A stretch of 64,000 bases of DNA from Gammaproteobacteria bacterium. Lineage in GTDB: Bacteria > Pseudomonadota > Gammaproteobacteria > JAURND01. The stretch spans positions 70,243-134,242 of the forward strand of contig DASZWJ010000034.1 of the NCBI GenBank assembly GCA_035546635.1, written 5' to 3'. The position numbers and the translations under genes were made by a program. The notes under the pieces were generated by a model. That model was not told the origin of the DNA and did no database searches. It saw nothing but the letters and a program-made list of their open reading frames with translations. Shown here piece after piece: positions 9,930 to 47,152 of the stretch (positions are counted from its first letter, which is position 1; every line of letters starts with the position of its first letter).

Positions 9930-9961
9930 TTAATATTCCCTTAATAGTTTTCTTATAAAAT
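9930..9961 (+). promoter_or_regulatory. PmrA-type direct-repeat box plus -10 (promoter of icmV-dotA copy 1)
   Basis: TTAATATT-CC-CTTAATAGT, then 7 nt, then TAAAAT, about 38 nt upstream of the icmV start. Confidence 0.65.
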
Positions 9962-9998
9962 ACCCTTCAAGCCTGTTATATTTATTGAGGGTAGTTTC

Positions 9999-10460
9999 TT
10001 GAAAAAGTTGTTAAGCGGCGTAGGTCGCGCATTTTTCCCTTTTCGCAATCCAAAGCGTATGGTTGGTTGGGATCAATTGCAAGAAAGCTTTAACAGCTTT
10101 GTGCGTGATCCAGCTAAAGAAGTATTGGGTCGCCGGAATAAAAAAACCAAAACCACTGAAACTTTTGAACAGGCGGTGACCCGCTTAAATATATCAGAAG
10201 AAGACCTCTCAGCCCGAAAAAAAACTTTTTTCCGAACGGCATTATTTTTTGTAGTAATGGCAGTTGCCTTGTTTATCTACACAGTGGATTTACTATTTTC
10301 TGGCCTATTATTAGCCACTTTTATTGCACTGGTATTAGTGGTTATTGCTTTAGCTTTAGCTTTTCGCGAGCATTTTTGGTATACGCAAATGCAACAGCGC
10401 CGCCTAGGAATCACTTTTAACGAATGGACTGGCTATACTTTTAGGGGAAATAAAAGATGA
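9999..10460 (+). CDS. icmV: Dot/Icm T4BSS inner-membrane protein IcmV (copy 1)
   Basis: 153 aa. The C-terminal half (VVIALALAFREHFWYTQMQQRRLGITFNEW) matches my memory of L. pneumophila IcmV (IALALAFRYHFWYFQIKERKLGCSFHEW). The start is TTG with a GAGGG RBS, and the stop overlaps the dotA ATG. Confidence 0.85.
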   Translation: MKKLLSGVGRAFFPFRNPKRMVGWDQLQESFNSFVRDPAKEVLGRRNKKTKTTETFEQAVTRLNISEEDLSARKKTFFRTALFFVVMAVALFIYTVDLLFSGLLLATFIALVLVVIALALAFREHFWYTQMQQRRLGITFNEWTGYTFRGNKR

Positions 10461-13210
10461 GTAGAACAGTAAAAAATTGTCTGATTTTCCTTGTGATGTT
10501 GTTGCCAGTTGCGGCATTTGCCGATAATTCTACCGGTTTACATCTCTTTACTGTTCCCACCAGTGATTTTTCAGTGAGTCTGCTAGAGCGCACTTTTGGC
10601 GCCGTGGGTAGTGTGTTACACGGTAAAGGCAATCAGATCGTTGGTTTGTTGCTCGGCATATTTAATGCCATGTGGGTGATTGTGATTGGTCTTGGTATTT
10701 TATTTCTGGTTTGGGATTCCGTTATGACTGCAGCGCATAGCGGTGAAATGATGCAAAGAAATGGCAAAAAAGCAGCGTTTACCATCATACGTATTGTGGT
10801 GGGTTTTTGTTTGGTAGTGCCAAGCAGCTCCACGGGTTATTCCATGGCGCAGACCGGTGTGGTGTGGGCGGTGGTGCAGGGCGTTGGATTGGCGGACGAA
10901 ATTACTGAAAAAGTGCATGATTATGCACAAGCAGGTGGACAAACTTTTACGCCAAAACCGTCAAGCGCTACCGAAATTGAACCGTTGATGAGCGTGGCTG
11001 CCGATATTCTTAAAGCTGAAGTCTGTATGTTTAAGGTACAGGATTTCCTAGATCAAAAGAAAAAAGAAGAAGACGAAGCATTAAAAGGAACTGGCGTTGA
11101 GCCAAACCCCCCTAGTGAATTTGATAAGATGGGTTATAGCATTAATGTTGGCACGACTTCAGGTAGTGTAACTTTTGGCAGCAAAAATCCAAATTATTCC
11201 CCTGATGATCCTACTACCGGCACTGAATATCTCAGTGACTGTGGTGAAGCCCATTGGAACTTAGTCCTGCCATTACCCGATGCCACTGAAAGCCAAGCAG
11301 CGAGTATGAAAAAAACGCTAGCTGGTTATATGCAAGCTGGCGTGACTGATTTAGTGGTGACTTTACAGCCCCTAGCCCGAGAATTGGCTTCTGCTGATTT
11401 AAGTGATACCGATGAAAATACTGAAAACTTTAAAAAGATAGCCGATAGAGCAGCTACCGCCATTGCGGGTGCGGGTGTTAGTTATACGACATTGATCGAT
11501 CCCATCAGAGGCGCCATAGCAATCACTGGAGAACAGGGTTTAAAAACTAGATTGACGCATTTGAATGAAAGGGGCTGGGTTTTCATGCCGATGATGGTTG
11601 TTGTGCCTGGACTATATTCAGTGGATTCGCTCAACATGGAAAGTTATATGCCGGCAGTCACACCGCCTAATCTGGTTCTCAATGAGCCGGCCAATAAAAT
11701 CAAAGTCTTAAGTTCAGAACAACGTCAAGAGATCATGGATGCCATAGTGCATGTGGAGACCGATAACTATGTCACCTTGGCTACTAATCAATTGAAATTA
11801 ATGGATACCAATAATGAATGGCCTAAGATCGATTTTAAAGCCATGTTCACTGTTGGAACACCTGATGGTAATTATATTAATAATTTAAGTGTTATTTTTG
11901 ATGGCACCCGGGAAATTATGAATGCTGGGCGCTTGGCGGCCAATGGTATGTTGGAGGTGCCTAAAGGCTTAATGCAGGGTATTAAGAGTATTGCAGATTT
12001 CTTTGTGGATGGATTTGACATTGGTGTCCCTGAGGTGTGTATTGGTGACCTGTGTGCCCCAGACATTAGTGTACACATTCCAGGTGTGGGTGGTGATACC
12101 AGCGGTTTGCAGAATGCTATCGATAAAATTAGTAACTTACAGAGCTCTCTGAATGATTCAGTCAATGGTGCCATCGGCAATTTAAATACGTTAGTGAGTG
12201 ATATTCAGAATAGTGCTACTTTAGCCGAGAAAGGCGGAATGACTTCTGAACTCATAGCATTGACAGGTCAGCTGGGGCCTTTAGGTCCGATGTATGCCAC
12301 CGTGATGACAGCCATGATTGGCAAGAGTATCACTAGCTTTGAGAATTATGTGTTTAGTTCAAATACTAACGCACTAGTCAGCTCCATTCAGTTGGGGGGC
12401 GACATGATGGTGGGCGCCATGAAGTCGGTTTTCCTGGGTGGTAAGATTATGTTTATCTCCACGCTGGTACAAGCGGGTATGAATGGTTTAAGCCAGATTG
12501 TTGGCATGATCCCAGGTGGAAAAGTAGTAGGCGGTGTGATGGATGTAGGCACCAACCTGGTGCATAAGGGTATTGAAAGCTTTACTGGTTTTCATATTGC
12601 CTTATCCCTTTTGATGTTTGCAGGTGGGGTGATGCTGTATTTCATGGTGCCACTGACTTTTATAGTCGCGTTTGCGTCGATTTGCTTGCGTTGGATTGGT
12701 ATGGTGTTAATTAACATATTAGCTGCGCCGATTTTTTGCTTTAACCTGATTCGGGCGGATAGTGAAGGTTTAGCTGGACGTGGGGAGCGTTTTCTCGGGG
12801 ATTTGGCGAAAACTGTGCTGACACCAGCTCTTTTAGCCATTGGTGCGATCGCGTTTGTCATATTGTTTAATATTGGATTTATGATTGTGACGACCGTGTT
12901 TAGTGCCTTTTTACCTATGCTGGCTAAAGCCTATAATTCCGCGATATTGATACCAGTAACATTAACACTGATATTACTGACATTTTCGGCGATGATGCTG
13001 TATTTAGCGACAACATTGTCTACTTTATGTACTACCGACTTTGTGAATCAGGTGACTAGTACTATTGGTGACACAATACAGCAGTTGCAAGATCAGCAGC
13101 CGACCCAGGAGATTCGCACCAGAATTCAAGAGGGCAGTCAGTATCCGACTGACAAAGTTAAAGGCATGGCCAGCGGTGGTAGCGGTATTATGGCGAAGGA
13201 TAAGCAATAG
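10457..13210 (+). CDS. dotA: Dot/Icm T4BSS polytopic membrane protein DotA (copy 1)
   Basis: 917 aa with a signal/TM segment, a large central periplasmic region and a C-terminal cluster of TM helices. It is translationally coupled (ATGA) to icmV, as in known icmV-dotA operons. Confidence 0.85.
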   Translation: MSRTVKNCLIFLVMLLPVAAFADNSTGLHLFTVPTSDFSVSLLERTFGAVGSVLHGKGNQIVGLLLGIFNAMWVIVIGLGILFLVWDSVMTAAHSGEMMQRNGKKAAFTIIRIVVGFCLVVPSSSTGYSMAQTGVVWAVVQGVGLADEITEKVHDYAQAGGQTFTPKPSSATEIEPLMSVAADILKAEVCMFKVQDFLDQKKKEEDEALKGTGVEPNPPSEFDKMGYSINVGTTSGSVTFGSKNPNYSPDDPTTGTEYLSDCGEAHWNLVLPLPDATESQAASMKKTLAGYMQAGVTDLVVTLQPLARELASADLSDTDENTENFKKIADRAATAIAGAGVSYTTLIDPIRGAIAITGEQGLKTRLTHLNERGWVFMPMMVVVPGLYSVDSLNMESYMPAVTPPNLVLNEPANKIKVLSSEQRQEIMDAIVHVETDNYVTLATNQLKLMDTNNEWPKIDFKAMFTVGTPDGNYINNLSVIFDGTREIMNAGRLAANGMLEVPKGLMQGIKSIADFFVDGFDIGVPEVCIGDLCAPDISVHIPGVGGDTSGLQNAIDKISNLQSSLNDSVNGAIGNLNTLVSDIQNSATLAEKGGMTSELIALTGQLGPLGPMYATVMTAMIGKSITSFENYVFSSNTNALVSSIQLGGDMMVGAMKSVFLGGKIMFISTLVQAGMNGLSQIVGMIPGGKVVGGVMDVGTNLVHKGIESFTGFHIALSLLMFAGGVMLYFMVPLTFIVAFASICLRWIGMVLINILAAPIFCFNLIRADSEGLAGRGERFLGDLAKTVLTPALLAIGAIAFVILFNIGFMIVTTVFSAFLPMLAKAYNSAILIPVTLTLILLTFSAMMLYLATTLSTLCTTDFVNQVTSTIGDTIQQLQDQQPTQEIRTRIQEGSQYPTDKVKGMASGGSGIMAKDKQ

Positions 13211-13216
13211 CATGCT

Positions 13217-13248
13217 TTAATGTTCTGTTAATGCTACCTAAGTAGAAT
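13217..13248 (+). promoter_or_regulatory. PmrA-type direct-repeat box plus -10 (promoter of icmV-dotA copy 2)
   Basis: TTAATGTT-CT-GTTAATGCT, then 7 nt, then TAGAAT, about 35 nt upstream of ATG 13283. Confidence 0.6.
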
Positions 13249-13282: not shown

Positions 13283-13744
13283 ATGAAAAAACTGTTTACT
13301 GGCCTAGGTCGAGCGTTTTTCCCATTTCGCAATCCTAAGCGTATGGTGGGCTGGGATCAGTTAAAAGACAGCTTTAACAGTTTTGTGCGTGATCCTGCGA
13401 AAGAAGTTTGGGATCGTAAACAAAAAAGAGTTGTGATCAAAGAGACTTTTGAAGAAGCATTAGTGCGTTTAAATCTCTCGGAAGAAATGGTGGTTGAGCG
13501 TAGAAAAACGTTTTTGCGCACAGCTCTGTTTTTCGTGGGGGTAGCACTAGTATTGTTTGTGTACACAATGTATTTGCTGTTTTCAGGGTTGTTTTTGGCT
13601 ACCTTTATCGGATGTGTTTTAGTAGTGATTGCGTTGGCTTTAGCATTTAGAGATCATTTTTGGTATACACAAATGAAACATCGTCGTTTGGGTCTGAGCT
13701 TTAGCGATTGGGCGAACTATACGCTGGGGAGAATAAAAAAATGA
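13283..13744 (+). CDS. icmV: IcmV paralog (copy 2)
   Basis: Same 462-nt length as copy 1 and the same upstream ttattgagggtagtt RBS region. The sequence (MKKLFTGLGRAFFPFRNPKRMVGWDQL...) is highly similar to copy 1. Confidence 0.85.
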   Translation: MKKLFTGLGRAFFPFRNPKRMVGWDQLKDSFNSFVRDPAKEVWDRKQKRVVIKETFEEALVRLNLSEEMVVERRKTFLRTALFFVGVALVLFVYTMYLLFSGLFLATFIGCVLVVIALALAFRDHFWYTQMKHRRLGLSFSDWANYTLGRIKK

Positions 13745-16389
13745 CCAGAATAGTAAAAAATTGTTTCATTGTTCTCTTGATGCTGTTGCCGGTCGCGGCA
13801 TTTGCTGATATTTCCAGTCTGAATTTGCATTTCTTCACGCCACCACAAGGTGATTATTCAGTTAGCCTTTTAGAGCGAACTTTTGGTGCTGTCGGCAATG
13901 TTTTGCATGGCCGGGGTAACCAAATCATCGGTATTGTTCTTGGTGTTTTCAATGCGGTGTGGGTCATTGTGATTGGCCTTGGTATTTTATTTGTGGTATG
14001 GGATACCGTGATTACTGCGGCACAAAGCGGAGAAATGATGCAGAGTCGCGGTAAGAAAACGGTATTTACGATTTTGCGTATTGTGATGGGTTTCGCTTTG
14101 GTAGTACCGAGTAAAGCCACTGGATACTCCATGGCGCAGAACGGCGTAGTATGGGTCGTAGTCCAAGGCGTGGGTTTAGCAGATCAGATTACGCAAAAGT
14201 TACATGATTATTTGCAGGCAGGAGGTCAGACTTTTACTTCTAAACCTTCTACCTCTGCGGATACAAACTTTTTAATGCCGATTGCAGCTAATGTGCTTAA
14301 GGCTGAGGTCTGCATGTATAAGTTGCAGGATATCGCAGATGAAAGAAAAAAATTACGCGATGAAGCGTTAAAAGAATCAGGAAGTTCCACTGATGCCGGT
14401 AGCGAACTGGCTAAGATTGGTTATAGCATTAATGTAGGTGAAAATTCGGGGAATATTACTTTTGGCAGCAAAAACCCGGCGTATAGTCCTAATAAAGCGG
14501 GTGAACCTGAATATCTCAATGATTGCGGGCAAGTTGACTGGGATGCTAGTGCGGTTGGCCTGCCAATGGCGAGTGATGCTGAAAGAGTGAGTGCCCGGAA
14601 AACGCTAGCGGGTTATATGCAAGCGGCTGTCACTGAAATGGCGTTGAATTTGCAACCTGTAGCCAGAGAGCTGGCTTCTCTTAATTCGAGCGATACCACT
14701 AGCGCAGATTCTATAGCGCAAAGAGCCGCAACTGCGATGGCAGGTGCTGGCACTAGTTTTGCCACATTACTTGACCCACTGAAAAAAGCGGTTGCAGTGA
14801 GTGCAGAGACCGAACTGAAAAATTCGTTGACTACGCTGAACAACAGAGGGTGGATTTTTACCCCGATGATGGTTATAGCGCCTGGGTTATATAATTTGAC
14901 CTCAATAAAACTCTCCGATTATGCGCCTGCTGCTAAATTGACGGATATTGGCAGTTCTACCATCGGTGTGCTTAAAGAGATAGATGGAACCGAAAAACAG
15001 CAGATAATCACGGCAATGGCGAAAGTGGATGCCAACTACGTTAGCAAAGCGAATGAGTATTTAAAGCTGATGGATGACAATAGTCAGTGGTCGGGTATTG
15101 ATTTTGCCGCACTGTATACAGGTACCCGCGATGCGAGTTATCTCGAGCATCTTAATGGTATATTTGATGCGACTAAATGGTCTTTGGACGCGGGTGCAAC
15201 TGCGGCCGCAGGTTTATTAGAAGTACCTAAGGGTGTAACAGAGTTTTTTAAAGACGTAGGTGATTTTTTTGATGCCGATACTTCAAAGTTACAAAATGGC
15301 ATAGATAAAATCACATCAGCACAGCAAAGTGTCCGTGATATGGTGGGTAATGCCAGTGGTAACTTGGATGCCTTGGTTGATGACATTCTAAGTGCTAAGG
15401 ACTTGGCGGTAAAAGGTGGTATGACTACGCAACTGCAGGATTTAACAGGTCAATTGGGTCCTTTAGGTCCGCTTTATGCGACGATTATGACTGCTATGAT
15501 TGGCCGGAGTATGGAAAGTCTGGAAGGTCATTTGTTTAACCCGAAATTTAATGCCATGGCCAGTTCTATTTATGTAGGTGGCGAGATGATGGTGTCGGCT
15601 ATGGAGTCGACTTTCCAAGCGGGTAAGATTCTGTTTGTTGGGACATTAGTTAAAGCTGCTGTGGATGGTTTGAACCAGGTGGTGAGCGCTATTCCTTATG
15701 TCGGCGGTGCTGTTGGCGGAATTGTGAGTATAGGCTCCAATCTGGTCCATAAAGGTATTGAGACTTTTTCGACCTTCCATATTGCGCTTTCAGTGATGTT
15801 ATTTGCCGGTGGTGTGTTGTTATATATTGTAGTGCCGCTGACCTTTGTGGTGGCGTTTGCTGCAATTTGTTTGCGCTGGATTGGTATGGTGATGATTAAT
15901 GTCCTGGGTGCGCCTATTTTTTGCTTTAACCTAATCCGTTCAGATGGTGAGGGGATGATAGGACGCGGGGAAAGGTTCTTGGCTGATCTGGCTAAGACGG
16001 CATTAACTCCGGCGATTCTAGCAATTGGTGCTGTGGCCTATTTGACGCTGTTTAATATTGGTTATTTGTTGATTACCTCCATTCTATCAGAATTCTTGCC
16101 GATGTTGGCTAAAGCGTATAATGACCCGATTTTAGTACCGGTGTCGCTAGCTGTGATATTAATGGTATTTTCGACCTTAATGGTGTACATCTCGCAGACT
16201 TTGGCTAATTTGTGTACTGCGGAGTTGGTAAACCATGTGACCGGTACCATTGGGGATACCATACAGCATCTGCATGATCAGGGTGTGGTTGAGCAGATGA
16301 AGGGTAGCGTGACCAAAGGCAGCGATAAGATGTCGGGCGGCATAAAGAGCATGACCAGCAGTGGTTCAGGTATGGGGCCTAAGCTATAG
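13741..16389 (+). CDS. dotA: DotA paralog (copy 2)
   Basis: 882 aa from ATG 13741, with the same ATGA overlap with icmV as copy 1. It is collinear with copy 1 (MTRIVKNCFIVLLMLLPVAAFA vs MSRTVKNCLIFLVMLLPVAAFA; C-terminal FCFNLIR..GRGERFL.DLAKT conserved). The reading frame is intact. Confidence 0.85.
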   Translation: MTRIVKNCFIVLLMLLPVAAFADISSLNLHFFTPPQGDYSVSLLERTFGAVGNVLHGRGNQIIGIVLGVFNAVWVIVIGLGILFVVWDTVITAAQSGEMMQSRGKKTVFTILRIVMGFALVVPSKATGYSMAQNGVVWVVVQGVGLADQITQKLHDYLQAGGQTFTSKPSTSADTNFLMPIAANVLKAEVCMYKLQDIADERKKLRDEALKESGSSTDAGSELAKIGYSINVGENSGNITFGSKNPAYSPNKAGEPEYLNDCGQVDWDASAVGLPMASDAERVSARKTLAGYMQAAVTEMALNLQPVARELASLNSSDTTSADSIAQRAATAMAGAGTSFATLLDPLKKAVAVSAETELKNSLTTLNNRGWIFTPMMVIAPGLYNLTSIKLSDYAPAAKLTDIGSSTIGVLKEIDGTEKQQIITAMAKVDANYVSKANEYLKLMDDNSQWSGIDFAALYTGTRDASYLEHLNGIFDATKWSLDAGATAAAGLLEVPKGVTEFFKDVGDFFDADTSKLQNGIDKITSAQQSVRDMVGNASGNLDALVDDILSAKDLAVKGGMTTQLQDLTGQLGPLGPLYATIMTAMIGRSMESLEGHLFNPKFNAMASSIYVGGEMMVSAMESTFQAGKILFVGTLVKAAVDGLNQVVSAIPYVGGAVGGIVSIGSNLVHKGIETFSTFHIALSVMLFAGGVLLYIVVPLTFVVAFAAICLRWIGMVMINVLGAPIFCFNLIRSDGEGMIGRGERFLADLAKTALTPAILAIGAVAYLTLFNIGYLLITSILSEFLPMLAKAYNDPILVPVSLAVILMVFSTLMVYISQTLANLCTAELVNHVTGTIGDTIQHLHDQGVVEQMKGSVTKGSDKMSGGIKSMTSSGSGMGPKL

Positions 16390-21289: not shown

Positions 21290-21321
21290 ATTAATATTCT
21301 CTTAAGGTGGAGTAGGTAGAA
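21290..21321 (+). promoter_or_regulatory. PmrA-type direct-repeat box plus -10 (promoter of the icmR-position ORF and icmQ)
   Basis: TTAATATT-CT-CTTAAGGTG, then 7 nt, then TAGAAT, about 70 nt upstream of GTG 21393. Confidence 0.6.
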
Positions 21322-21392
21322 TGGACTCATGAACTAAAGAGCCAGAGCATAAAAAATGACTCTGGGATTTTAATGTTTGTGGAGGAGTTAAC

Positions 21393-21695
21393 GTGAAAGA
21401 AAACAATAATAATACGTTGGTCGATGCTGAAGAACACAAACATGACCATGATAAAGAAGTAGTAGACCAAGTAGAAACAGTGGCTAGAAAAGTAAGAGAG
21501 GATGTAAGCCAGCTCAGGGGTCAGGTAACTACCCTTCAAAACCGCAATAATACCCAATTTTTTAAGCCAGCGACAGGTGAAGCAGCTAAAGTTATTGGGG
21601 GTTTGCTTGATAATGCTGTAGATGTGGCACGCAAAGAAGAAGAAAAAGCTCAAGAGTTATTGCAAGGTTCAAAATTGGGTTTAAGCGGGAGCTAA
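21393..21695 (+). CDS. Candidate functional IcmR analogue (FIR-position ORF; possible IcmQ chaperone)
   Basis: A 100-aa, highly charged, helix-prone protein lying directly upstream of icmQ. The start is GTG with a GGAGGAG RBS. The call is based on position only. Confidence 0.45.
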   Translation: MKENNNNTLVDAEEHKHDHDKEVVDQVETVARKVREDVSQLRGQVTTLQNRNNTQFFKPATGEAAKVIGGLLDNAVDVARKEEEKAQELLQGSKLGLSGS

Positions 21696-21741
21696 GAATA
21701 AATAAAACTTTCCAGCCTATTCTATTTATTCGGAGTGAATT

Positions 21742-22299
21742 GTGTATCAACAAGAAGCAAGAGACAGACTGGTCAATGCATTAGATAAGGCTATTAATGA
21801 AGGCCAATGGGAAGGCAGTTTGTTTTTTAGAAATATATTGAAACGGCTGCATGAAATTCGGGAATATGTCGTAGTAGAATTAGACGATCCTGAGCAAGAC
21901 ACGGAAGTCAATGCAGAGCTAGTAAATGCCATCAACAAACAAGAACAAGGTTACCAAAAAGTATATATTGCCATCTATCAGGCACAAGGTGACCGCTTAG
22001 CAGGGTGGACAAATGCGGTCAGTAAACTGTGTGATTATTATATTAGCCGCCCGGTTTATCAAAAAGAAGATCACGTGCGTGAAATGATTTTCGCCAAACG
22101 CAGCAGGAATGATGCTTATGTTGCAATTTGGGTTCGTCAAGAAGATATTTTGGGGACGAATAAAACGCAGGATCGCTGGGGGCATGAACTGCTGATCTTA
22201 AAAGAAGGCAGTGTCAAAGTTGAGAATATTATTGAATTTGTGCATGACAATTATAGATATTCCCTGATGGGAAATAAATTAGTGTTAAATAATGCATAA
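21742..22299 (+). CDS. icmQ: Dot/Icm protein IcmQ
   Basis: 185 aa. The N-terminal helical region (LVNALDKAINEGQWEGSLFFRNILKRL), the size and the position upstream of icmP fit IcmQ. Confidence 0.8.
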   Translation: MYQQEARDRLVNALDKAINEGQWEGSLFFRNILKRLHEIREYVVVELDDPEQDTEVNAELVNAINKQEQGYQKVYIAIYQAQGDRLAGWTNAVSKLCDYYISRPVYQKEDHVREMIFAKRSRNDAYVAIWVRQEDILGTNKTQDRWGHELLILKEGSVKVENIIEFVHDNYRYSLMGNKLVLNNA

Positions 22300-22369
22300 A
22301 GTTTTTTTGCCTAATTCTCTTGAGTAAAATTAGGCCAATTTTCAAACTATAAAGTAAAACAGGTGTCAA

Positions 22370-23509
22370 ATGCAAGGTCGTCAACAAGGTGGTAATGGTG
22401 ATAATTCCATGGATATGCTGTGGATAGGAGGCGTGCTTATCGCTTTTGTCCTAGGTATCTGGTATTTCGGCCGTTTTTATATTATTCAAACCGCCTTTTT
22501 CGTTAAATATTACGAGATCAACGTGATTAACTATGTGTTAGGCGCGTGGAATTTGCTAGCGCATAAAGCTAGCTTGCCTGAATTTAATTTAACACTGCTC
22601 AAAGAGTTGCAAGCGCAAATTCAGACCAGAAGTATTGGTACAAATTATTCAGCGCTACAAATTGCTATGACCATGGTGGGACAGTATCTGTGCTATCCAT
22701 TAGGGTTGGTGATGGTGATTTTAGCGTTTATTATTCACGGTAAAAACATCACGCTAAAATTAAGAAACGTTTTCAGCATGAAAACCATGAAGCAAATGGA
22801 GCAGAAAGAAAATCCCCAGATTGCGCCGGTGATTAAATTGAGTTTGGCTAAAGAAAATGTCAACCAAGGTAACTGGGCAATGGCTATGACGCCCATGCAA
22901 TATTGCAAGCATATGAAGTTATTAAAAGAGAAAAAATCTGAAACCGGTGCAGTGACAGTAGAATTATTGCGTAGTGAGGCGCAGCAGGCATTTGTACTGC
23001 AACTTGGACCTTTATGGAGTGGGGTTGAAACATTGCCCTTGCATGCGAAAGCTTTATTTGCAGCATTTGCTGCCTTTGGTAACCAAGATCGTGCCGGTGG
23101 TATGAGACTGCTGCAGCATATTTCAGGTTCTGCAGCCGAAGGTCAGTTGAATTTTGATGGCACGCATGCCTTGTTAGCTAAACATAAAGACAGCAAATTG
23201 GTAGCCAAAGTCATCAGCAGACATGCTTATATATTAACCGTATTTGCAACGATGTTGGAATTAGCTAGAACCGATGGCGTATTTGCCACCAGTGAGTTTT
23301 TATGGTTAAAGCCGCTCAATAGACGCTTGTGGTATGTGTTAAATACCGTAGGCCGGCAAACGGCTGTGCCTGAAGTTGGCGGAGTTTATGCGCATTGGAT
23401 CGCGGAGAAAAAATGGGGTGGTGCATTGCGTACCCCTATGGTTGAGGAAGCGGTAAAAGGATTAGAGATCGCTCTTTCAGAAGTTATTTATGAAGCTGAA
23501 GAAGAATAG
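22370..23509 (+). CDS. icmP: Dot/Icm coupling-complex membrane protein IcmP/DotM
   Basis: 379 aa with N-terminal TM segments. It lies immediately upstream of icmO/dotL. Confidence 0.85.
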   Translation: MQGRQQGGNGDNSMDMLWIGGVLIAFVLGIWYFGRFYIIQTAFFVKYYEINVINYVLGAWNLLAHKASLPEFNLTLLKELQAQIQTRSIGTNYSALQIAMTMVGQYLCYPLGLVMVILAFIIHGKNITLKLRNVFSMKTMKQMEQKENPQIAPVIKLSLAKENVNQGNWAMAMTPMQYCKHMKLLKEKKSETGAVTVELLRSEAQQAFVLQLGPLWSGVETLPLHAKALFAAFAAFGNQDRAGGMRLLQHISGSAAEGQLNFDGTHALLAKHKDSKLVAKVISRHAYILTVFATMLELARTDGVFATSEFLWLKPLNRRLWYVLNTVGRQTAVPEVGGVYAHWIAEKKWGGALRTPMVEEAVKGLEIALSEVIYEAEEE

Positions 23510-23517
23510 GTGGCGGT

Positions 23518-25881: not shown

Positions 25882-25895
25882 ATCAGTCGTGACCC

Positions 25896-25954: not shown

Positions 25955-25982
25955 TGTAAAATTGTTATTCTAGGGAAAAAAC

Positions 25983-31253: not shown

Positions 31254-31285
31254 TTAATATTGTCTTAATGTTATACAGGTATCAT
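31254..31285 (+). promoter_or_regulatory. PmrA-type direct-repeat box plus -10 (distal, upstream of icmG)
   Basis: TTAATATT-GT-CTTAATGTT, then 7 nt, then TATCAT. Confidence 0.5.
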
Positions 31286-31434: not shown

Positions 31435-31466
31435 TTAATATTTTCTTAATTTTGAATAGGTAATAT
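31435..31466 (+). promoter_or_regulatory. PmrA-type direct-repeat box plus -10 (proximal, abutting the icmG start)
   Basis: TTAATATT-TT-CTTAATTTT, then 7 nt, then TAATAT. The -10 ends 6 nt before ATG 31473. Confidence 0.55.
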
Positions 31467-32306: not shown

Positions 32307-32481
32307 TTGGCGCTGTATTTAGCAATGTTGTTTGGTTGCTATTAAGGACGGGTCTGTATATATTTTGATTTTAAGGAATATAGGAGTGAGGACTGAGGGG
32401 ATTCAGTCGGTAATGAAGGATTATAGGTATCTTAAAGATAGCTTTCTGAAAGATAATAGTTTAGTTAGGATTTTACTGAAT

Positions 32482-32520
32482 AGTTATTGATTTTTGCAGA
32501 TGGGGTAAAAATCAATAACT
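32482..32520. promoter_or_regulatory. Perfect 14-bp inverted repeat (agttattgattttt / aaaaatcaataact, 11-nt loop) 50 bp upstream of icmD-like gene 1
   Basis: Exact reverse-complement arms are seen directly. It may be an operator or a weak AT-rich hairpin, and the function is unknown. Confidence 0.4.
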
Positions 32521-32569
32521 CGACAGTAGCGAAACAGGATGTAATTTAAAACATCAAAAGAGGTTAGAA

Positions 32570-32977
32570 ATGAAGTTAATATCATCAAAAACTAAAAAAA
32601 TTCTAGGAACAGCCTTAGCTGCCCTGGGCATTTTTGTAGTCAGTCAGGCAGCTTTAGCTGATGCTCAGAGTCTTGGGACTCTTGCAACTACAGCCACTAG
32701 CAGTTTTAGCGGTCTAGGTAAATTGTTATTTGCTATCTCCTATGTCTGTGGTTTCGGTTTGGCAGTGATTGCGATATTCTTATTTAAGAAACATAGGGAT
32801 AATCCGCAACAGACCGCATTGGGTGTACCTGTTGGTATGCTGGTAATTGGCGTTGGTTTAATATTCTTACCGACCCTATTAGGTTCTGCGGGTATGACAT
32901 TGTTTGGAGCAGACAGACAAGCGTCTGACTTTAGCGGCTCTGGTTATGAGATCAATCTCAGCGACTCGGGTAGTTAA
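32570..32977 (+). CDS. IcmD/DotP-like small inner-membrane protein, paralog 1 (occupies the icmC/dotE position)
   Basis: 135 aa with a signal/TM segment and two TM helices. Its 78-aa core is identical to that of the next gene. It sits between icmG and icmJ. Confidence 0.7.
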   Translation: MKLISSKTKKILGTALAALGIFVVSQAALADAQSLGTLATTATSSFSGLGKLLFAISYVCGFGLAVIAIFLFKKHRDNPQQTALGVPVGMLVIGVGLIFLPTLLGSAGMTLFGADRQASDFSGSGYEINLSDSGS

Positions 32978-33108
32978 TAAAGTATTACTAGGATAAATAT
33001 TTCCAGGGATGGAACCTCCATCTGATATCTACCAATGCGGATGGAAAATAAAAACACAAGGAGTCATTAGCGTTAGGGATTTGGTAAATCAGTCCTATAG
33101 AGGTTAAC

Positions 33109-33513
33109 ATGAAATTAAATATATCGAAAATTAAGAAAGTACTTCTGGGTTTAGGTGTGCTCGGATTTTTTGCAGTCAGTCAGGCAGCACTTGCTGATGC
33201 TAAAGCGCTTGGCGACCTTGCATTGACGGCAACTAGCAGTTTTAGTGGCTTAGGTAAATTGTTATTTGCTATTTCCTATGTTTGTGGTTTCGGATTAGCA
33301 GTTATCGCAATTTTCTTGTTTAAGAAACATAGAGATAATCCGCAGCAGACCGCATTGGGTGTACCTGTTGGTATGCTGGTGATTGGTGTTGGTTTGATAT
33401 TCTTACCGACCCTGTTAGGTTCTGCGGGTATGACGTTGTTTGGAGCAGACAGACAAGCTTCTGACTTTACTGGTTCTGGTTATGAGATCAATCTCAGCGA
33501 TACTTCCAGTTAA
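33109..33513 (+). CDS. icmD: IcmD/DotP-like small inner-membrane protein, paralog 2
   Basis: 134 aa. Size and position directly upstream of icmJ match icmD/dotP. Confidence 0.75.
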   Translation: MKLNISKIKKVLLGLGVLGFFAVSQAALADAKALGDLALTATSSFSGLGKLLFAISYVCGFGLAVIAIFLFKKHRDNPQQTALGVPVGMLVIGVGLIFLPTLLGSAGMTLFGADRQASDFTGSGYEINLSDTSS

Positions 33514-33561
33514 ACGATAGTTAGTCAGAAACTGGTGGAGTATGCGCCAGTTAGTTAATAT

Positions 33562-33611
33562 ATGCCGCTTGTGCTTGAAGATTGATACTAATCTTCAAGC
33601 ACGAGCGGCAT
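33562..33611 (+). terminator. Strong stem-loop downstream of icmD-like gene 2
   Basis: atgccgcttgtgcttgaagatt / aatcttcaagcacgagcggcat form a 22-bp stem with one mismatch. No clear T-run follows. Confidence 0.5.
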
Positions 33612-33678
33612 TATTACGTTCATGGGTCACTTAATATGCACTTTGCAGTTTAGGTGAAAATGGGTATAGCAGAGGAAA

Positions 33679-34302
33679 ATGACTTTGAATCCGCTGACAT
33701 TACATGTTATTCCTGGCGCTTTTCGACTGTTTATTGCCAGAAAGGCCGACAAAGCTTTTGAAGCATTTAGCACAAAAGTGTGGGAAAGAGATGACTACAC
33801 CTGTCAATTTTGTGGGTTTCAGGCGCGGCAATTCCAAGAAGTCATTAACCTTGATACCCAATATCAAAACAATCGGCTGTCTAATTTATCGACGGCTTGT
33901 TGCTTTTGTACACAATGTTTCTTTTTAGAGGCAGTCGGTAAAGGTGACTACGGTGGTGGTACTTTGATTTACTTGCCTGAAATCAGCCAGTCTGATTTAA
34001 ACGGCCTGTGCCATGTCTTATTTTGCGCTATTGCTAATGCGACCGATTACCGCACTGATGCGCAGAATATTTACCGTAACCTGAAGTTACGCTCCAAATA
34101 TGTGGAAGATAAACTGGGTGAGGGGATGAGTAATCCTTCCCTGGTAGGTCAGGCATTGGTGAATGTCCTTGATCCACAAAAACAAGAAGCCATGCCAGAA
34201 TGGCTAAATTCCCTAAGATTATTACCGGCGCGCGCTAAATTCAGCTTACAGATTGAAACCTGGGCTGCCGCTGCGCTGGAAGAATTATCAGCAGAAAGCT
34301 AA
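33679..34302 (+). CDS. icmJ: Dot/Icm coupling-complex protein IcmJ/DotN (Cys-rich zinc-binding)
   Basis: 207 aa with cysteine clusters CQFCGF and CCFCTQC. It lies upstream of icmB. Confidence 0.88.
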   Translation: MTLNPLTLHVIPGAFRLFIARKADKAFEAFSTKVWERDDYTCQFCGFQARQFQEVINLDTQYQNNRLSNLSTACCFCTQCFFLEAVGKGDYGGGTLIYLPEISQSDLNGLCHVLFCAIANATDYRTDAQNIYRNLKLRSKYVEDKLGEGMSNPSLVGQALVNVLDPQKQEAMPEWLNSLRLLPARAKFSLQIETWAAAALEELSAES

Positions 34303-34438
34303 GGCTGTAAGAGAAGTATTGTCATCCTGTGCCTACATCCAGGAGAGCTAGTTATCAGCTAGAATACGAAGTTTAGAATCAGCAATTGTTGCTGAAAACA
34401 GCAAAACCCGCTGTGAATAGATATACGAGATAAAGTAA

Positions 34439-37400
34439 ATGGCAAATATTTTAAGTTCACTTTTAGACACAGTGGATGTGTTTATCGCCTGGGCTTCCTC
34501 ATCGTTAAAACAAACGGTGGAATCCTATTGCGAACTGCAGACCGCGGATAGCAAAAATACGCTAGTCGCACATGATGGCTCGTTGGTCTCGGTACTCAGA
34601 ATCCGCGGCGTGCGCGCCCTGGTTGGAAAAGAAGAGTTTGATCGCATTCAACTAGGTTTACAGCAAGCACTGGCCACCACCATGTCTCGCACCGGACATA
34701 CTCTACAAGTACATTTCACCCATAACAAAGATGACGTAGACCAAAAAATCCGCGAAATCCTGCGTCCAGCCCAAGAAACCAGCAAGCGTTTGGAATTAGA
34801 GCTGGATGATTTATTCAATGAGCGCGTTAAATATTTACAAAAATACTGCGCCCATGAATCTATTTATATGGTGCTCTGGACACGCCCTAATAGCTTAACG
34901 GGTGAGCAGTTGGGACGCGCTAGAAAAGAAAAAATGAAGGCCTTCAAACAAAAAAAAGTGCCAGTATTCCGTTATACCCAAAATTTAATGGCAGCGATTC
35001 CAGATCTGCGTGAAGGGCATGAATCTTTTGTCCGCGCTGTGATGAGTGACTTAAATATGCTGGAAATTGTGACTGACCTTCTAGAAGTGCATCAAGCAGT
35101 CAAAGCCATGCGCATGACCGTCGACCCAGACTTTACCGACCGCGAATGGCTGCCATCATTACCTGGCGATAAAATCAAAGTCAAAGAATCTCAGCAAATG
35201 CGAGGCGATGTCTCTGATGTATTATGGCCATCATTGGCAAGGCAAATACTACCCCGCGATGCAGAAATTCTCGACCTACGCACAGCGCGCATCGGCGATC
35301 GTATCTATTCCTCGGTATTTATCGATTTATTTCCTAAAGATATCCAACAGTTTGCCTCATTATTTGTCAGGGTAGCACAAACCAATACCCCCTGGCGTAT
35401 TTCCTTCTTGATTGAAAGCGGCGGTTTAAGTTCAATGAAGCTCAAAACTGCATTGTCATCGCTGTTGTCATTTAGCTCTGCGCAGAATCGGCTATTAAAT
35501 GATTCTATGGATTTATTACGCTATGTGGACATCAATACCGATGATTCAGTGGTTAAACTGCGAGTCACCGCAACCACTTGGGCGCCTGCCGATGATATGC
35601 GTTTGCTGCGCAATCGAGCGGCGCAGTTAGCTAAAGCCATAGAAAGCTGGGGATCGTGTAATGTCTCCGAAGTATGTGGTGATGCTTTTGCCGGCGTGAC
35701 TTCCAGTATGTTGGGTGTGAGCAGCCATAGTGTCGCTGTGGCCTCTGTGGCGCCACTCTCTGATGTATTGTATATGTTGCCCCTATTTCGACCGTCCTCG
35801 CCTTGGTCAAATGGCGCTATTCTGTTTCGTTCGCCGGATGGTAAACCCTGGCCTTATCAACCAGGTTCCAGTGAGCAGACTACCTGGATTGATATCATGT
35901 ACGCACGGCCGGGTTCTGGTAAATCCGTATTATCTAATGCGATTAATTTGGCATTAGCTTTAGGTCCCGGCATGCAGCGTTTACCACGCATTGCAGTGAT
36001 TGATATTGGTCCTTCCAGTAGCGGGTTAATTTCTCTCTTGAAAGAAGCTTTACCCATAGAGAAAAAGCATTTGGCGGCCTACCATCGACTGCGTATGACG
36101 CCTGAGTATACGATTAATCCATTTGATACCCAGCTGGGTGCGCGTTACCCGACACCACAGGAAAGAAGTTTCTTGGTGAATTTCCTCACCCTGTTGGCAA
36201 CCCCAGTAGGTGCTACCAAAACCTATGATGGTATCTCGGATATGTCGGGATTGATTGTTGATGAGCTTTATAAAAGCTTGGCTGATGATGGTAATCCCCA
36301 TGTTTATACTCCGGGTGCGGAGATGTTTATTGACGGGATTTTGGAAGAAATTGGCTTTGTCAGCGATCCGCATACCACTTGGTGGGAAGTGACGGATGCA
36401 CTGTTCATCGCCGGTTTTACCCATGAAGCATTATTGGCGCAACGCCACGCCGTGCCGGTGATGGCTGATGTGACTTCAATTTGCCGTTCTTCCGCGGTGG
36501 AGGATTTGTTTGGGAAAATTGTTGCTCCAACGGGTGAAACTTTAATCAGCGCCTTTGGTCGTATGATTTCCAGTGCTATCCGTGAATATCCTATCATTGC
36601 ACAAGCAACAAAATTTGATATTGGTGAAGCCAGAATTGTTTCCTTAGATTTAGATGAGGTGGCCAAAAGCGGCGGTGATGCCGCTAACCGTCAGACTGCG
36701 GTGATGTATATGTTGGCGCGTTATGTCTTGGCGCGACATTATTTTTTAACCGAAGAAGACGTTGCCGATATGCCGGAGACTTTTCGTAGTTATCATGAGG
36801 CGCGTGTTTCTGAAATCCGCGAAGATCCTAAGCGTATTGTCTTTGACGAATTCCACCGTACTGCAGGTGTAGAGGCCGTGCGTAATCAGGTGATCCAGGA
36901 TATGCGTGAGGGACGTAAGTGGAAGGTGCAGGTGGCGCTGATTTCTCAGTCTTTAGATGATTTTGATGCAGTGATGGTGGAGTTTGCTACCTCCATCTTT
37001 ATTATGGATGCAGGTCCCGAGCAAGCGATTTTGAAAACCACCAAAGTGTTTGGTCTATCCGACACTGCGCAGCATGCCTTGCGTACGCGCGTACATGGCC
37101 CAAGAGAAGGCGGTTCGACGTTTTTGGCTTTATTCGCCACCAAGCATGGTTTAAACACGCAGTTATTAACCTTAACTTTAGGTCCTGTGGAACTGTGGGC
37201 ATTTAGCACGACCCTGGAAGATGCACAGATTCGTAATAAGCTTTATCGTCGCCTTAACCCGATTGTGGCACGGCGTTTATTGGCTACGCTATTTCCTTCA
37301 GGTTCGGCGATGAAGATGATTGAAAATCGCCTGCTAGCAGTTAAAGAAAGGCACGGTGCGGTGACTGAAGAGCTGAAGATGGGTGTGGTTGATCGGGTGG

Positions 37401-37456
37401 TAGAGGATGTGCTGGAGGCTTATGGTAAAAACCCGGATGTGAAGTTTATTAGCTAG
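34439..37456 (+). CDS. icmB: Dot/Icm ATPase IcmB/DotO (VirB4-like)
   Basis: 1005 aa with Walker A ARPGSGKS and Walker B-like RIVFDEFHR. Confidence 0.92.
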   Translation: MANILSSLLDTVDVFIAWASSSLKQTVESYCELQTADSKNTLVAHDGSLVSVLRIRGVRALVGKEEFDRIQLGLQQALATTMSRTGHTLQVHFTHNKDDVDQKIREILRPAQETSKRLELELDDLFNERVKYLQKYCAHESIYMVLWTRPNSLTGEQLGRARKEKMKAFKQKKVPVFRYTQNLMAAIPDLREGHESFVRAVMSDLNMLEIVTDLLEVHQAVKAMRMTVDPDFTDREWLPSLPGDKIKVKESQQMRGDVSDVLWPSLARQILPRDAEILDLRTARIGDRIYSSVFIDLFPKDIQQFASLFVRVAQTNTPWRISFLIESGGLSSMKLKTALSSLLSFSSAQNRLLNDSMDLLRYVDINTDDSVVKLRVTATTWAPADDMRLLRNRAAQLAKAIESWGSCNVSEVCGDAFAGVTSSMLGVSSHSVAVASVAPLSDVLYMLPLFRPSSPWSNGAILFRSPDGKPWPYQPGSSEQTTWIDIMYARPGSGKSVLSNAINLALALGPGMQRLPRIAVIDIGPSSSGLISLLKEALPIEKKHLAAYHRLRMTPEYTINPFDTQLGARYPTPQERSFLVNFLTLLATPVGATKTYDGISDMSGLIVDELYKSLADDGNPHVYTPGAEMFIDGILEEIGFVSDPHTTWWEVTDALFIAGFTHEALLAQRHAVPVMADVTSICRSSAVEDLFGKIVAPTGETLISAFGRMISSAIREYPIIAQATKFDIGEARIVSLDLDEVAKSGGDAANRQTAVMYMLARYVLARHYFLTEEDVADMPETFRSYHEARVSEIREDPKRIVFDEFHRTAGVEAVRNQVIQDMREGRKWKVQVALISQSLDDFDAVMVEFATSIFIMDAGPEQAILKTTKVFGLSDTAQHALRTRVHGPREGGSTFLALFATKHGLNTQLLTLTLGPVELWAFSTTLEDAQIRNKLYRRLNPIVARRLLATLFPSGSAMKMIENRLLAVKERHGAVTEELKMGVVDRVVEDVLEAYGKNPDVKFIS

Positions 37457-46279: not shown

Positions 46280-46305
46280 TGTATTTTACAATTTATAAAC
46301 TCATT

Positions 46306-47019
46306 ATGGGTCAAAAATACGATATGCGTCGAAAATACACTAAAAAAGTGCTGGTCACAGATGAGAATTCAACGCCGGAGGCTAGGGCAGAACGGCTGAA
46401 ACGTGTGCGGAATATGGCTAATTTAACGCGAGAGCAAATGTGTCATGATGGTGCTATTAACATCAATACTTATAAAGGATGGGAAGTGGCGCGTTATGGG
46501 GGGTTACCGGTTGATGGTGCTGAAAGGGTTGTGGTGCGAGTGCGGCAGGAAGGGGTGGTTTGTACAGCAGATTGGTTGCTATATGAGATAGGGGTAGGTC
46601 CTTATGTGATACCCGATTACAAAAGCGCTGCTGAGAAAGGTGGTAAACAGGCTTATGTGGTACCGGATAATGAAGAACAATTAATCACCAATGAATTATT
46701 GTTATTCAGAAAACAGTTTCCCGATGTGATTATTTACACTATCGAAGATGATGGTTTAAGTCCAATATTTGAGCCAGGTGATTTTGTCGCAGGTATTAAG
46801 TTGTTTGCAGATAATATCCATAAGGCGCTTAATAAAAATTGCATCATTCAAACGCAAGAGGGCAAGGTGTTGGCCAGAAAACTGCAGGAGGGCTCTAAAG
46901 CCGGTGTGTATATGTTGACGTGTTCTAATATTTATACTACTACCAAAATGCCAGTGCTTTATGATGTAGCCATTGTGAGTGCGGCACCAATTATTCGTTG
47001 CTATAAAAAAGCGTTATGA
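46306..47019 (+). CDS. CI/LexA-like repressor (XRE HTH plus S24 peptidase-like C-terminal domain)
   Basis: The HTH is ERLKRVRNMANLTREQMC. The C-terminal DDGLSPIFEPGDFVAG and EGKVLARKL resemble S24 Ser and Lys motifs. The start site is uncertain; the ORF opens at TTG 46279. Confidence 0.55.
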   Translation: MGQKYDMRRKYTKKVLVTDENSTPEARAERLKRVRNMANLTREQMCHDGAININTYKGWEVARYGGLPVDGAERVVVRVRQEGVVCTADWLLYEIGVGPYVIPDYKSAAEKGGKQAYVVPDNEEQLITNELLLFRKQFPDVIIYTIEDDGLSPIFEPGDFVAGIKLFADNIHKALNKNCIIQTQEGKVLARKLQEGSKAGVYMLTCSNIYTTTKMPVLYDVAIVSAAPIIRCYKKAL

Positions 47020-47120
47020 GAGGTAATTACTAATGAAGTTCAAGGATGGGTTCCCGCCTTCGCGGGAATGACAGTGCTTTTTTGAAAATGACGTTTTTTG
47101 TACGCATATTCTGCCAAAGT

Positions 47121-47152
47121 TTAATATTCTCTTAAGATTTGTAAAATACAAT
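47121..47152 (+). promoter_or_regulatory. PmrA-type direct-repeat box plus -10 upstream of orphan ORF 47226
   Basis: TTAATATT-CT-CTTAAGATT, then 7 nt, then TACAAT. Confidence 0.55.

What the first reader, a model, noticed from the sequence alone, without database searches (positions are those of the whole stretch)
9930..47152. Seven PmrA-type direct-repeat boxes, each exactly 7 nt from a -10 hexamer
The same composite motif occurs seven times on the plus strand, always intergenic and always upstream of a plus-strand gene. 9930: TTAATATT-CC-CTTAATAGT-N7-TAAAAT (icmV copy 1). 13217: TTAATGTT-CT-GTTAATGCT-N7-TAGAAT (icmV copy 2). 21290: TTAATATT-CT-CTTAAGGTG-N7-TAGAAT (icmR-position ORF and icmQ). 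31254: TTAATATT-GT-CTTAATGTT-N7-TATCAT and 31435: TTAATATT-TT-CTTAATTTT-N7-TAATAT (icmG). 39008: TTAATGTA-AG-GTTAATGTT-N7-TAAATT (orphan ORF 39099). 47121: TTAATATT-CT-CTTAAGATT-N7-TACAAT (orphan ORF 47226). From memory, this matches the tandem cTTAATatT-N2-cTTAATatT element bound by the response regulator PmrA. That element replaces the -35 of Dot/Icm and effector promoters in L. pneumophila and C. burnetii. The invariant spacing argues for real promoters rather than chance AT-rich matches. The boxes therefore define a local regulon: four Dot/Icm transcription units and two orphan genes.
Basis: partly seen in the sequence, partly recalled or inferred. Interest (0 to 1): 0.7.

Follow-up and report, generated by a model that had tools for sequence, protein, structure and literature searches.

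The report
PmrA-type promoters of a Dot/Icm locus
Seven promoters in this uncultured Legionella/Coxiella-like bacterium carry the same activator-binding box already known to switch on the Dot/Icm secretion machine and its effectors in Legionella and Coxiella, so the finding is real but extends a known regulatory scheme to a new lineage.

Summary
All seven composite sites (TTAAT-N6-TTAA, then exactly 11 nt, then TAnnnT) are present on the + strand. All are intergenic and each precedes a + strand gene. The third starts at 21291, not 21290. A published, independent L. pneumophila PmrA matrix has the same geometry, including the N7 gap to the -10. It ranks these seven as the best positions in the window (20.2-26.8 bits; next 15.2; best of 100 shuffles 19.8). 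None has a -35. About 1 Mb of related Dot/Icm loci holds 29 sites against 2.1 expected, and 26 of them are intergenic. They lie upstream of icmV, icmW, the small ORF before icmQ, icmG, and the ORF slot after xseA. Only the TTAA cores and the -10 are conserved there. These are therefore PmrA-type, activator-dependent promoters: known biology in a new lineage. Side results: both copies of the duplicated icmV-dotA module keep their own box. icmG has two conserved tandem boxes, and the proximal one predicts a leaderless mRNA. The lineage-restricted ORF 39099 ends in a CaaX prenylation motif, which suggests an effector.

The parts
9930..9961 (+). PmrA-type box (9930-9948), N7 spacer and -10 TAAAAT (9956-9961). 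Promoter of icmV copy 1 and dotA copy 1.
   Evidence: 25.9 bits with the published PmrA matrix. No -35; predicted start near 9968, 31 nt before TTG 9999. An orthologous box lies before the first icmV copy of L015.
9999..13210 (+). icmV copy 1 (9999-10460) and dotA copy 1 (10457-13210).
   Evidence: NCBIfam IcmV_IVB 130.9 bits (cut-off 100). DotA/TraY subfamily 160.9 bits (cut-off 100).
13217..13248 (+). PmrA-type box, N7 spacer and -10 TAGAAT. Promoter of icmV copy 2 and dotA copy 2. It starts 7 nt after the dotA1 stop codon.
   Evidence: 22.5 bits. Orthologous box in L015 (24.5 bits), with icmV boxes also in L002, L004, L005, L006 and L007.
13283..16389 (+). icmV copy 2 (ATG 13283-13744) and dotA copy 2 (13708-16389).
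   Evidence: NCBIfam IcmV_IVB 118.2 bits; DotA/TraY 152.5 bits. The copies are 70% (IcmV) and 56% (DotA) identical.
21291..21322 (+). PmrA-type box, N7 spacer and -10 TAGAAT. Promoter of the 100-aa ORF in the icmR position and of icmQ.
   Evidence: 21.9 bits. Boxes in the same position, before a small ORF preceding icmQ, occur in L006, L008, L010, L020 and L048; L013 carries a near-identical box before a small ORF but no icmQ match was mapped there.
21393..31044 (+). Small ORF (21393-21695), icmQ (21742-22299), then icmP, icmO and four further Dot/Icm-cluster ORFs (25983-26528, 26591-27232, 27360-28493, 28480-31044) in the icmN, icmL, icmK and icmE positions. This is the presumed transcription unit.
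   Evidence: Pfam Dot_icm_IcmQ 138.5 bits. Pfam labels on the syntenic genes of L001 and L064: DotM_C, TraG-D_C, OmpA, DotI_IcmL, DotH_IcmK, TrbI. That it is one operon is inferred from the same strand and short gaps.
31254..31285 (+). Distal PmrA-type box, N7 spacer and -10 TATCAT (icmG P1). It would give a leader of about 181 nt.
   Evidence: 26.2 bits. Conserved in L064 (28.8), L065 (26.2) and L066 (22.2). No ORF of 20 aa or more on the + strand between P1 and icmG.
31435..31466 (+). Proximal PmrA-type box, N7 spacer and -10 TAATAT (icmG P2). The hexamer ends 6 nt before the icmG ATG.
   Evidence: 26.8 bits. Box, spacer and -10 are almost invariant in L064, L065 and L066. The predicted start is the A of ATG 31473, and there is no Shine-Dalgarno sequence.
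31473..37456 (+). icmG/dotF (31473-32306), two small ORFs, icmJ/dotN (33679-34302) and icmB/dotO (34439-37456).
   Evidence: NCBIfam IcmG_DotF E 5e-33, below the curated cut-off. IcmJ_DotN 319.8 bits. Same gene order in L064 and L066.
39008..39039 (+). PmrA-type box, N7 spacer and weak -10 TAAATT, in the divergent xseA / ORF 39099 intergenic region.
   Evidence: 20.2 bits, the weakest of the seven. A box is conserved in the same slot in L064 (26.2 bits, TAAATT) and L066 (20.5 bits, TAAGTT).
39099..40457 (+). Lineage-restricted 452-aa ORF. Candidate translocated effector with a polybasic stretch and a C-terminal CLIS (CaaX) motif.
   Evidence: No Pfam or NCBIfam hit. The only relatives among 1.84 billion representatives are the L066 ORFs. 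The L066 homologue also ends in CLIS. GC is 34% against about 43% for the window.
47121..47152 (+). PmrA-type box, N7 spacer and -10 TACAAT. Promoter of ORF 47226.
   Evidence: 25.4 bits. No -35; predicted leader of 67 nt. Conservation could not be tested because there are no homologues.
47226..48380 (+). Orphan 384-aa ORF, Ser-rich with an acidic C-terminal region. Candidate effector.
   Evidence: No family hit. No homologue in the 5.8-billion-protein search. Sequence features.

Best explanation
The seven sites are activator-dependent sigma-70 promoters of the Legionella/Coxiella PmrA type. A dimer of an OmpR/PhoB-family response regulator, most likely the PmrA (QseB-like) orthologue of this organism, binds head-to-tail to the two TTAAT half-sites, which are spaced one helical turn (11 bp) apart. 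The box covers about -39 to -20, where a -35 hexamer would otherwise lie. The bound activator recruits RNA polymerase to a -10 hexamer fixed 7 nt downstream. This places four Dot/Icm transcription units under one signal: icmV1-dotA1, icmV2-dotA2, small ORF-icmQ and downstream genes, and icmG to icmB. Two lineage-specific candidate effector genes share that signal. Shown here: the sites, their geometry, their statistical excess, the absence of a -35, their intergenic and co-oriented placement, and their conservation at orthologous positions. Inferred: the identity of the binding protein, activation rather than repression, the transcription starts, and the operon extents.
For: The published PmrA matrix has identical geometry. 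It ranks the seven sites as the top seven positions of the window, all above every one of 100 shuffles. Seven of the ten TTAA-N7-TTAA sites have the hexamer at offset 11. In 52 independent Dot/Icm loci the offset histogram peaks at 11, with 21 cases against 1-6 at any other offset. Across about 1 Mb of relatives there are 29 matrix hits at 17 bits or more against 2.1 in shuffles. Of these, 26 are intergenic although about 80% of bases are coding, and nearly all are followed by an ORF start. Among nine icmV promoters only the TTAA cores and the TA..T of the -10 are invariant. Boxes also precede icmW in L006 and L007, the small ORF before icmQ, icmG in tandem in three relatives, and the xseA-adjacent slot. 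No site has a -35. Literature: C. burnetii has PmrA sites in at least 68 promoter regions, including five upstream of dot/icm operons, and pmrA mutants cannot translocate effectors (PMC4117601). The PmrA motif is used to predict effectors (PMC3961360).
Against: No PmrA/PmrB orthologue was found or could be searched for. The window and the fetched loci contain no OmpR-type regulator, and the source contig outside the window is withheld. There are no transcription-start, binding or expression data. The C at position 1 of the first half-site, which the Legionella matrix favours, is absent from all seven window sites. TTAA direct repeats at 11-bp spacing are also bound by other OmpR-family regulators: enterobacterial PmrA, CtrA and BqsR. 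The sequence alone therefore does not name the protein. The -10 of the 39008 site (TAAATT) is weak.
Confidence: 0.85

Rival explanations
1. The promoters are real and activator-dependent, but the protein that binds them is another OmpR/PhoB-family response regulator with TTAA-repeat specificity. It would be a paralogue or a BqsR/QseB-like system wired to a different signal, not the orthologue of Legionella/Coxiella PmrA.
For: The same half-site and 11-bp spacing serve several regulators: enterobacterial PmrA (CTTAAT-N5-CTTAAG), CtrA (TTAA-N7-TTAA) and BqsR. The regulator gene was not identified here.
Against: The composite geometry, including N7 to the -10, and the target genes (icmV, icmW, the icmQ operon, effector-like genes) match what is described for PmrA in the two studied Dot/Icm-bearing genera, Legionella and Coxiella. 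CtrA is described only in Alphaproteobacteria in the papers found.
Confidence: 0.1
2. The sites are copies of one sequence spread by duplication or by a small mobile or repeated element, with no shared regulation.
For: The icmV1 and icmV2 sites clearly arose with the duplication of the icmV-dotA module, since they share a leader.
Against: Outside the box and the -10, the other sites share no flanking similarity. Orthologous sites in relatives conserve only the TTAA cores and the hexamer while the flanks are randomised, which indicates selection on a binding site.
Confidence: 0.03
3. The sites are chance AT-rich matches in intergenic DNA.
For: Intergenic DNA is AT-rich, and TAnnnT hexamers are common.
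Against: Seven sites exceed the best score of 100 dinucleotide-preserving shuffles. The spacing is sharply fixed. There is a 14-fold excess in relatives, and the positions are orthologous.
Confidence: 0.01

Closest known systems
PmrA regulatory element of Legionella pneumophila and Coxiella burnetii (Zusman et al. 2007; matrix in Burstein et al. 2009, PMC2701608)
   Same: Tandem cTTAATatT-N2-cTTAATatT, fixed N7 to a TAnnnT -10, no -35, and a position upstream of Dot/Icm operons and effector-like genes. As in C. burnetii, several dot/icm operons themselves carry the box.
   Different: The organism is an uncultured lineage that is absent from the GTDB species representatives searched; its nearest relative there has 91% DotB identity. 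The leading C of the first half-site is not kept, and there is a G preference just 5' of the -10. Both copies of a duplicated icmV-dotA module carry a box. icmG has two tandem boxes. Regulator binding is untested.
Enterobacterial PmrA (BasR) box, CTTAAT-N5-CTTAAG (Salmonella, Klebsiella; PMC3973317)
   Same: The same half-site core and 11-bp head-to-tail spacing, bound by a dimer of an OmpR-family winged-helix regulator.
   Different: The regulon differs (lipopolysaccharide modification). No fixed N7 link to the -10 was noted in the passages read. The K. pneumoniae pbgP box lies at about -170 from the start codon.
CtrA box TTAA-N7-TTAA of Alphaproteobacteria
   Same: Identical core pattern, often placed at the -35 position of activated promoters.
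   Different: CtrA is a cell-cycle regulator described in Alphaproteobacteria in the papers found, whereas this window is a Dot/Icm locus whose nearest relatives are gammaproteobacterial MAGs labelled Coxiellaceae, Legionellales, Legionellaceae or Berkiella.

Membership tests
Legionella/Coxiella-type PmrA regulatory element | Tandem direct repeat of a TTAAT-containing 9-mer with a 2-nt spacer (11-bp period) | tested here: met
   All seven sites have TTAAT-N6-TTAA.
Legionella/Coxiella-type PmrA regulatory element | Fixed 7-nt distance from the second 9-mer to a TAnnnT -10 hexamer, as encoded in the published matrix | tested here: met
   Matrix positions 21-27 are neutral and 28-33 read TAtaaT. 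All seven sites have the hexamer at that offset. The offset peak also appears in relatives.
Legionella/Coxiella-type PmrA regulatory element | Significant score with the published, independently derived PmrA matrix | tested here: met
   20.2-26.8 bits of a possible 33.8. Best shuffle score 19.8; next best real position 15.2.
Legionella/Coxiella-type PmrA regulatory element | Box takes the place of the -35 hexamer | tested here: met
   The best -35 match is 1-3 of 6 at all seven sites. The generic sigma-70 scan, run only on 30900-31600, listed no + strand promoter there, so it did not pick up the two icmG sites.
Legionella/Coxiella-type PmrA regulatory element | Located in intergenic DNA, co-oriented with a downstream Dot/Icm or effector-type gene | tested here: met
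   True of all seven sites. In relatives 26 of 29 hits are intergenic, before icmV, icmW, the icmQ operon, icmG and effector-like ORFs.
Legionella/Coxiella-type PmrA regulatory element | A PmrA/PmrB (QseB/QseC-like) two-component system is encoded in the same genome | not testable with these tools
   None in the window or in the fetched loci.
Legionella/Coxiella-type PmrA regulatory element | PmrA binds the box, and expression depends on PmrA and on the TTAA cores | not testable with these tools
   This needs EMSA or reporter experiments. It has been shown for L. pneumophila and C. burnetii only (Zusman 2007, as cited).
Dot/Icm translocated effector (for ORFs 39099 and 47226) | PmrA-type promoter, no bacterial homologues, atypical GC, and a eukaryote-type motif or acidic C-terminus | tested here: inconclusive
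   ORF 39099 has the box, 34% GC, a polybasic stretch plus CLIS CaaX shared with its only homologue. CaaX prenylation is known for Legionella effectors (PMC2916131, PMC13081727). ORF 47226 has the box, no homologue and an acidic C-terminal region. Translocation itself is untested, and many PmrA-box genes in Coxiella are not translocated.

The most novel reading that the evidence does not exclude
icmG has a conserved double PmrA promoter. The distal box gives a leader of about 180 nt. The proximal box places the transcription start on the A of the icmG ATG, so it would make a leaderless mRNA. This would offer two modes of PmrA-dependent expression for the icmG-icmB operon. In addition, the box next to xseA would mark a conserved 'effector slot': the promoter is retained while the coding sequence is replaced or diverges, and in this genome it holds a CaaX-prenylated protein.
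Probability: 0.3. Interest if true: 0.45.

Novelty: new member of a known kind. Interest (0 to 1): 0.3.

Why it matters
The result shows that the PmrA-box logic established in L. pneumophila and C. burnetii also holds in uncultured, environmental relatives. The same composite promoter sits at orthologous Dot/Icm operons across many MAG lineages, so the circuit is probably old and widespread among Dot/Icm-bearing relatives of Legionella and Coxiella. In practice the box can be used, as it is in Coxiella, to nominate effector genes in genomes that cannot be cultured. Here it points to two lineage-specific ORFs, one of which carries a host-prenylation motif. It does not change current understanding of the mechanism.

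Tried and rejected
1. A genome-contig scan with IcmQ found no relative. The repeat with DotB worked.
2. The metagenome scan with IcmB returned only five distant loci with a different gene order. They had no strong boxes and gave no information about icmG.
3. The search for a PmrA orthologue failed on every route. Pfam on 40 window ORFs found only a partial receiver ORF and a HATPase ORF, with no OmpR output domain. phmmer with E. coli QseB against all ORFs of the window and the loci found only a receiver domain in a 703-aa L003 protein. Walking off both window ends gave only short Logan contigs without regulators.
4. Beare et al. 2014 (PMC4010987) is not held. The consensus could not be found as a text string in Legionella papers, so the matrix in the Burstein 2009 supplement was used instead.
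5. A PWM trained on the seven sites was set aside as circular for the window. It was used only on independent loci and then replaced by the published matrix.
6. Rfam found nothing in the icmG leader, only two tRNAs elsewhere in the window. RNAalifold on the leader gave a weak structure of -3.7 kcal/mol, which was not pursued.
7. The minus-strand hit at 5323 (15.2 bits) lies inside purC and lacks a -10, so it was rejected as chance.

Full report
**Observation**

TTAA-N7-TTAA occurs only ten times in the 64-kb window. In seven of those ten, TAnnnT follows exactly 11 nt after the second TTAA, which is 7 nt after the 19-nt box. The other three (5308, 33104, 40708) have no hexamer at that offset and lie in or at coding sequence. 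TTAA-N2-T-N4-TTAA is found 11 times against 2.2 expected, and no shuffle out of 100 reached 11.

**Context**

- It contains a tandemly duplicated icmV-dotA module, dotB-dotC-dotD on the minus strand, and icmT and icmS.
- It then has a 100-aa ORF, icmQ, icmP, icmO and four further Dot/Icm-cluster ORFs up to 31044 (in the icmN, icmL, icmK and icmE positions), followed by icmG, two small ORFs, icmJ and icmB.
- Next come xseA on the minus strand and housekeeping genes.
- The organism itself is not among the GTDB species representatives.
- The nearest relatives are uncultured gammaproteobacterial MAGs with DotB identity of 91%, 84%, 79%, 76% and 75%. One of them is labelled Coxiellaceae bacterium SSA3.
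- The source contig is 274,903 nt long.

**Independent test of the motif**

The supplement of Burstein et al. 2009 (PMC2701608) gives the position matrix used for the L. pneumophila PmrA element. It reads cTTAATatT, two neutral positions, cTTAATatT, seven neutral positions, then TAtaaT.

I scored the window on both strands with this matrix, which owes nothing to the window.
- The seven sites score 20.2-26.8 bits out of a possible 33.8, and they are the seven best positions.
- The next best positions score 15.2, 12.9 and 12.0 bits.
- In 100 dinucleotide-preserving shuffles the best score was 19.8, and the mean number of hits at 15 bits or more was 0.30.
- None of the seven has a recognisable -35, with 1-3 matches of 6.
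- The generic sigma-70 scan, run only on 30900-31600, listed no + strand promoter there, so it missed the two icmG sites.
- If the start lies 7 nt after the hexamer, the box spans about -39 to -20. That is the position of a class II activator.

**Comparative evidence**

- In 52 Dot/Icm loci fetched with DotB, the offset of TAnnnT after TTAA-N7-TTAA peaks sharply at 11, with 21 cases against 1-6 for every other offset.
- Across about 1 Mb of loci from other organisms, the published matrix finds 29 sites at 17 bits or more, against 2.1 in shuffles.
- Of those 29, 26 are wholly intergenic although about 80% of bases lie in long ORFs. Almost all are followed by an ORF start on the same strand.
- They fall at orthologous places:
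  - before icmV in L002, L004, L005, L006, L007 and both copies in L015;
  - before icmW, divergent from icmV, in L006 and L007, where IcmW_IVB scores 176 and 162 bits;
  - before the small ORF that precedes icmQ in L006, L008, L010, L020 and L048, with a near-identical box before a small ORF in L013.
- Among nine icmV promoters, the only invariant columns are the two TTAA cores and the TA..T of the -10. The flanks are unrelated. That is the footprint of a binding site, not of a repeated element.

**The icmG and xseA sites**

I fetched three syntenic relatives through IcmG homologues: L064, L065 and L066, with 59%, 82% and 77% IcmG identity.
- All three keep both boxes in front of icmG, 159-186 nt apart. 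The window spacing is 181 nt. They score 22-29 bits.
- L064 and L066 also keep a box between xseA and the following + strand ORF, at 26.2 and 20.5 bits, with the same weak -10 (TAAATT or TAAGTT).
- The ORF in that slot is 39% identical over 240 aa in L066 and unrelated in L064.
- The site at 47121 could not be checked, because ORF 47226 has no detectable homologue.

**Mechanism**

The best explanation is that these are PmrA-type promoters. A response-regulator dimer would bind head-to-tail to two half-sites one helical turn apart. That binding mode was shown structurally for enterobacterial PmrA on CTTAAT-N5-CCTAAG (PMC3973317). The dimer would substitute for the -35 contact and drive transcription from the fixed -10.

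In C. burnetii, at least 68 promoter regions carry a PmrA site, including five upstream of dot/icm operons, and pmrA or pmrB mutants cannot translocate effectors or replicate intracellularly (PMC4117601; PMC3961360). From my own memory of Zusman et al. 2007, which is not held in the library, PmrA binding and dependence on the box were shown by mobility shift and by mutation. The present locus reproduces that arrangement.

The sites, their geometry, their excess and their conservation are shown. The identity of the protein, activation, the transcription starts and the operon extents are inferred.

**What could not be tested**

- The window has no OmpR-type regulator. The only candidates are a partial receiver ORF (48645-49628, minus strand) and a HATPase ORF (51090-52988, minus strand).
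- E. coli QseB finds nothing relevant in any fetched locus.
- Because TTAA repeats at 11-bp spacing are also used by CtrA, BqsR and enterobacterial PmrA, I keep a 10% rival in which a different OmpR-family regulator is the binder.

**Additional features**

1. The icmV-dotA duplication is old. The copies are 70% (IcmV) and 56% (DotA) identical, and the duplication is shared with L015. It carried the promoter and the Shine-Dalgarno leader with it.
2. The proximal icmG hexamer ends 6 nt before the ATG in the window and 4 nt before it in the relatives. There is no Shine-Dalgarno sequence, an in-frame TAA sits inside the hexamer, and ATGAATGCAAA is invariant. P2 may therefore produce a leaderless icmG mRNA. 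I rate this at about 0.3, because a 4-nt discriminator would require an unusually close start.
3. ORF 39099 ends in KNKKRKKEKKSK...CLIS and has 34% GC. Its only relatives among 1.84 billion representatives are the L066 ORFs, and the L066 homologue also ends in CLIS. CaaX prenylation by the host is documented for Legionella effectors (PMC2916131, PMC13081727). This makes it a good effector candidate, but many PmrA-box genes in Coxiella are not translocated.
4. The base just 5' of the -10 is G in 18 of 26 relatives' sites and in 4 of 7 window sites, although that column is neutral in the matrix.

**Verdict**

This is a new member of a known kind: the PmrA-box regulon in an uncultured lineage of Dot/Icm-bearing gammaproteobacteria. 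A specialist would not be surprised. The value lies in effector prediction for uncultured genomes and in the small architectural variants: duplicated promoters, tandem icmG promoters, and a possible leaderless transcript. Interest 0.3.

Noticed in passing
window 9999-16389; L015 (reverse-complement coordinates 3615-9840): The icmV-dotA module is duplicated in tandem. The copies are 70% (IcmV) and 56% (DotA) identical. The closest relative, L015, has the same two copies, so the duplication is old and both copies are maintained with their own promoters.
   Followed up: partly
window 31435-31475; L064 9964-10003; L065 862-901; L066 738-777: The proximal icmG -10 hexamer ends only 4-6 nt before the conserved ATG. 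There is no Shine-Dalgarno sequence, and an in-frame stop lies inside the hexamer. This suggests a leaderless icmG mRNA.
   Followed up: partly
window 31286-31434: The roughly 180-nt leader made from the distal icmG promoter is fairly conserved in four genomes. It shows a weak long-range pairing (AAATCAG...CTGATTT) with a few compensatory changes. Rfam finds no match.
   Followed up: partly
window 39099-40457; L066 8476-10093; L064 17509-18855: ORF 39099 carries a polybasic stretch and a C-terminal CLIS CaaX motif, which its only homologue (in L066, where the gene is split in two) shares. In L064 the same slot holds an unrelated 448-aa ORF behind a conserved box.
   Followed up: partly
all box sites, position immediately 5' of the -10 hexamer: G is preferred at the last spacer position (18 of 26 sites in relatives, 4 of 7 in the window) and often at the position before it. 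The published matrix treats these columns as neutral.
   Followed up: partly
L006 and L007, intergenic region between icmW and icmV: Two divergent boxes, one for icmW and one for icmV, share one short intergenic region. In the window icmW and icmX are not next to icmV; tsaB precedes it.
   Followed up: partly
window 48645-52988 (minus strand): A 327-aa ORF has only a partial receiver domain, a 349-aa ORF has no family, and a 632-aa ORF has a HATPase_c domain. This is an atypical two-component-like set next to the orphan ORF 47226, and it is not of the OmpR type.
   Followed up: no
window 45728-47019: A small LuxR/GerE-type regulator (45728-46135, minus strand) and a 246-aa ORF without family (46279-47019) lie immediately upstream of the 47121 box.
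   Followed up: no
L055 2415-11039 (just right of the window end): A 2874-aa protein with Glycoamylase and GH94 domains follows pgl. By my recollection this domain set resembles cyclic beta-1,2-glucan synthases.
   Followed up: no
L015, L002, L003, L004 compared with window 19469-22299: In the four closest relatives the icmT-icmS-icmQ cluster is not adjacent to dotD as it is in the window. The Dot/Icm region has therefore been rearranged within this lineage.
   Followed up: no
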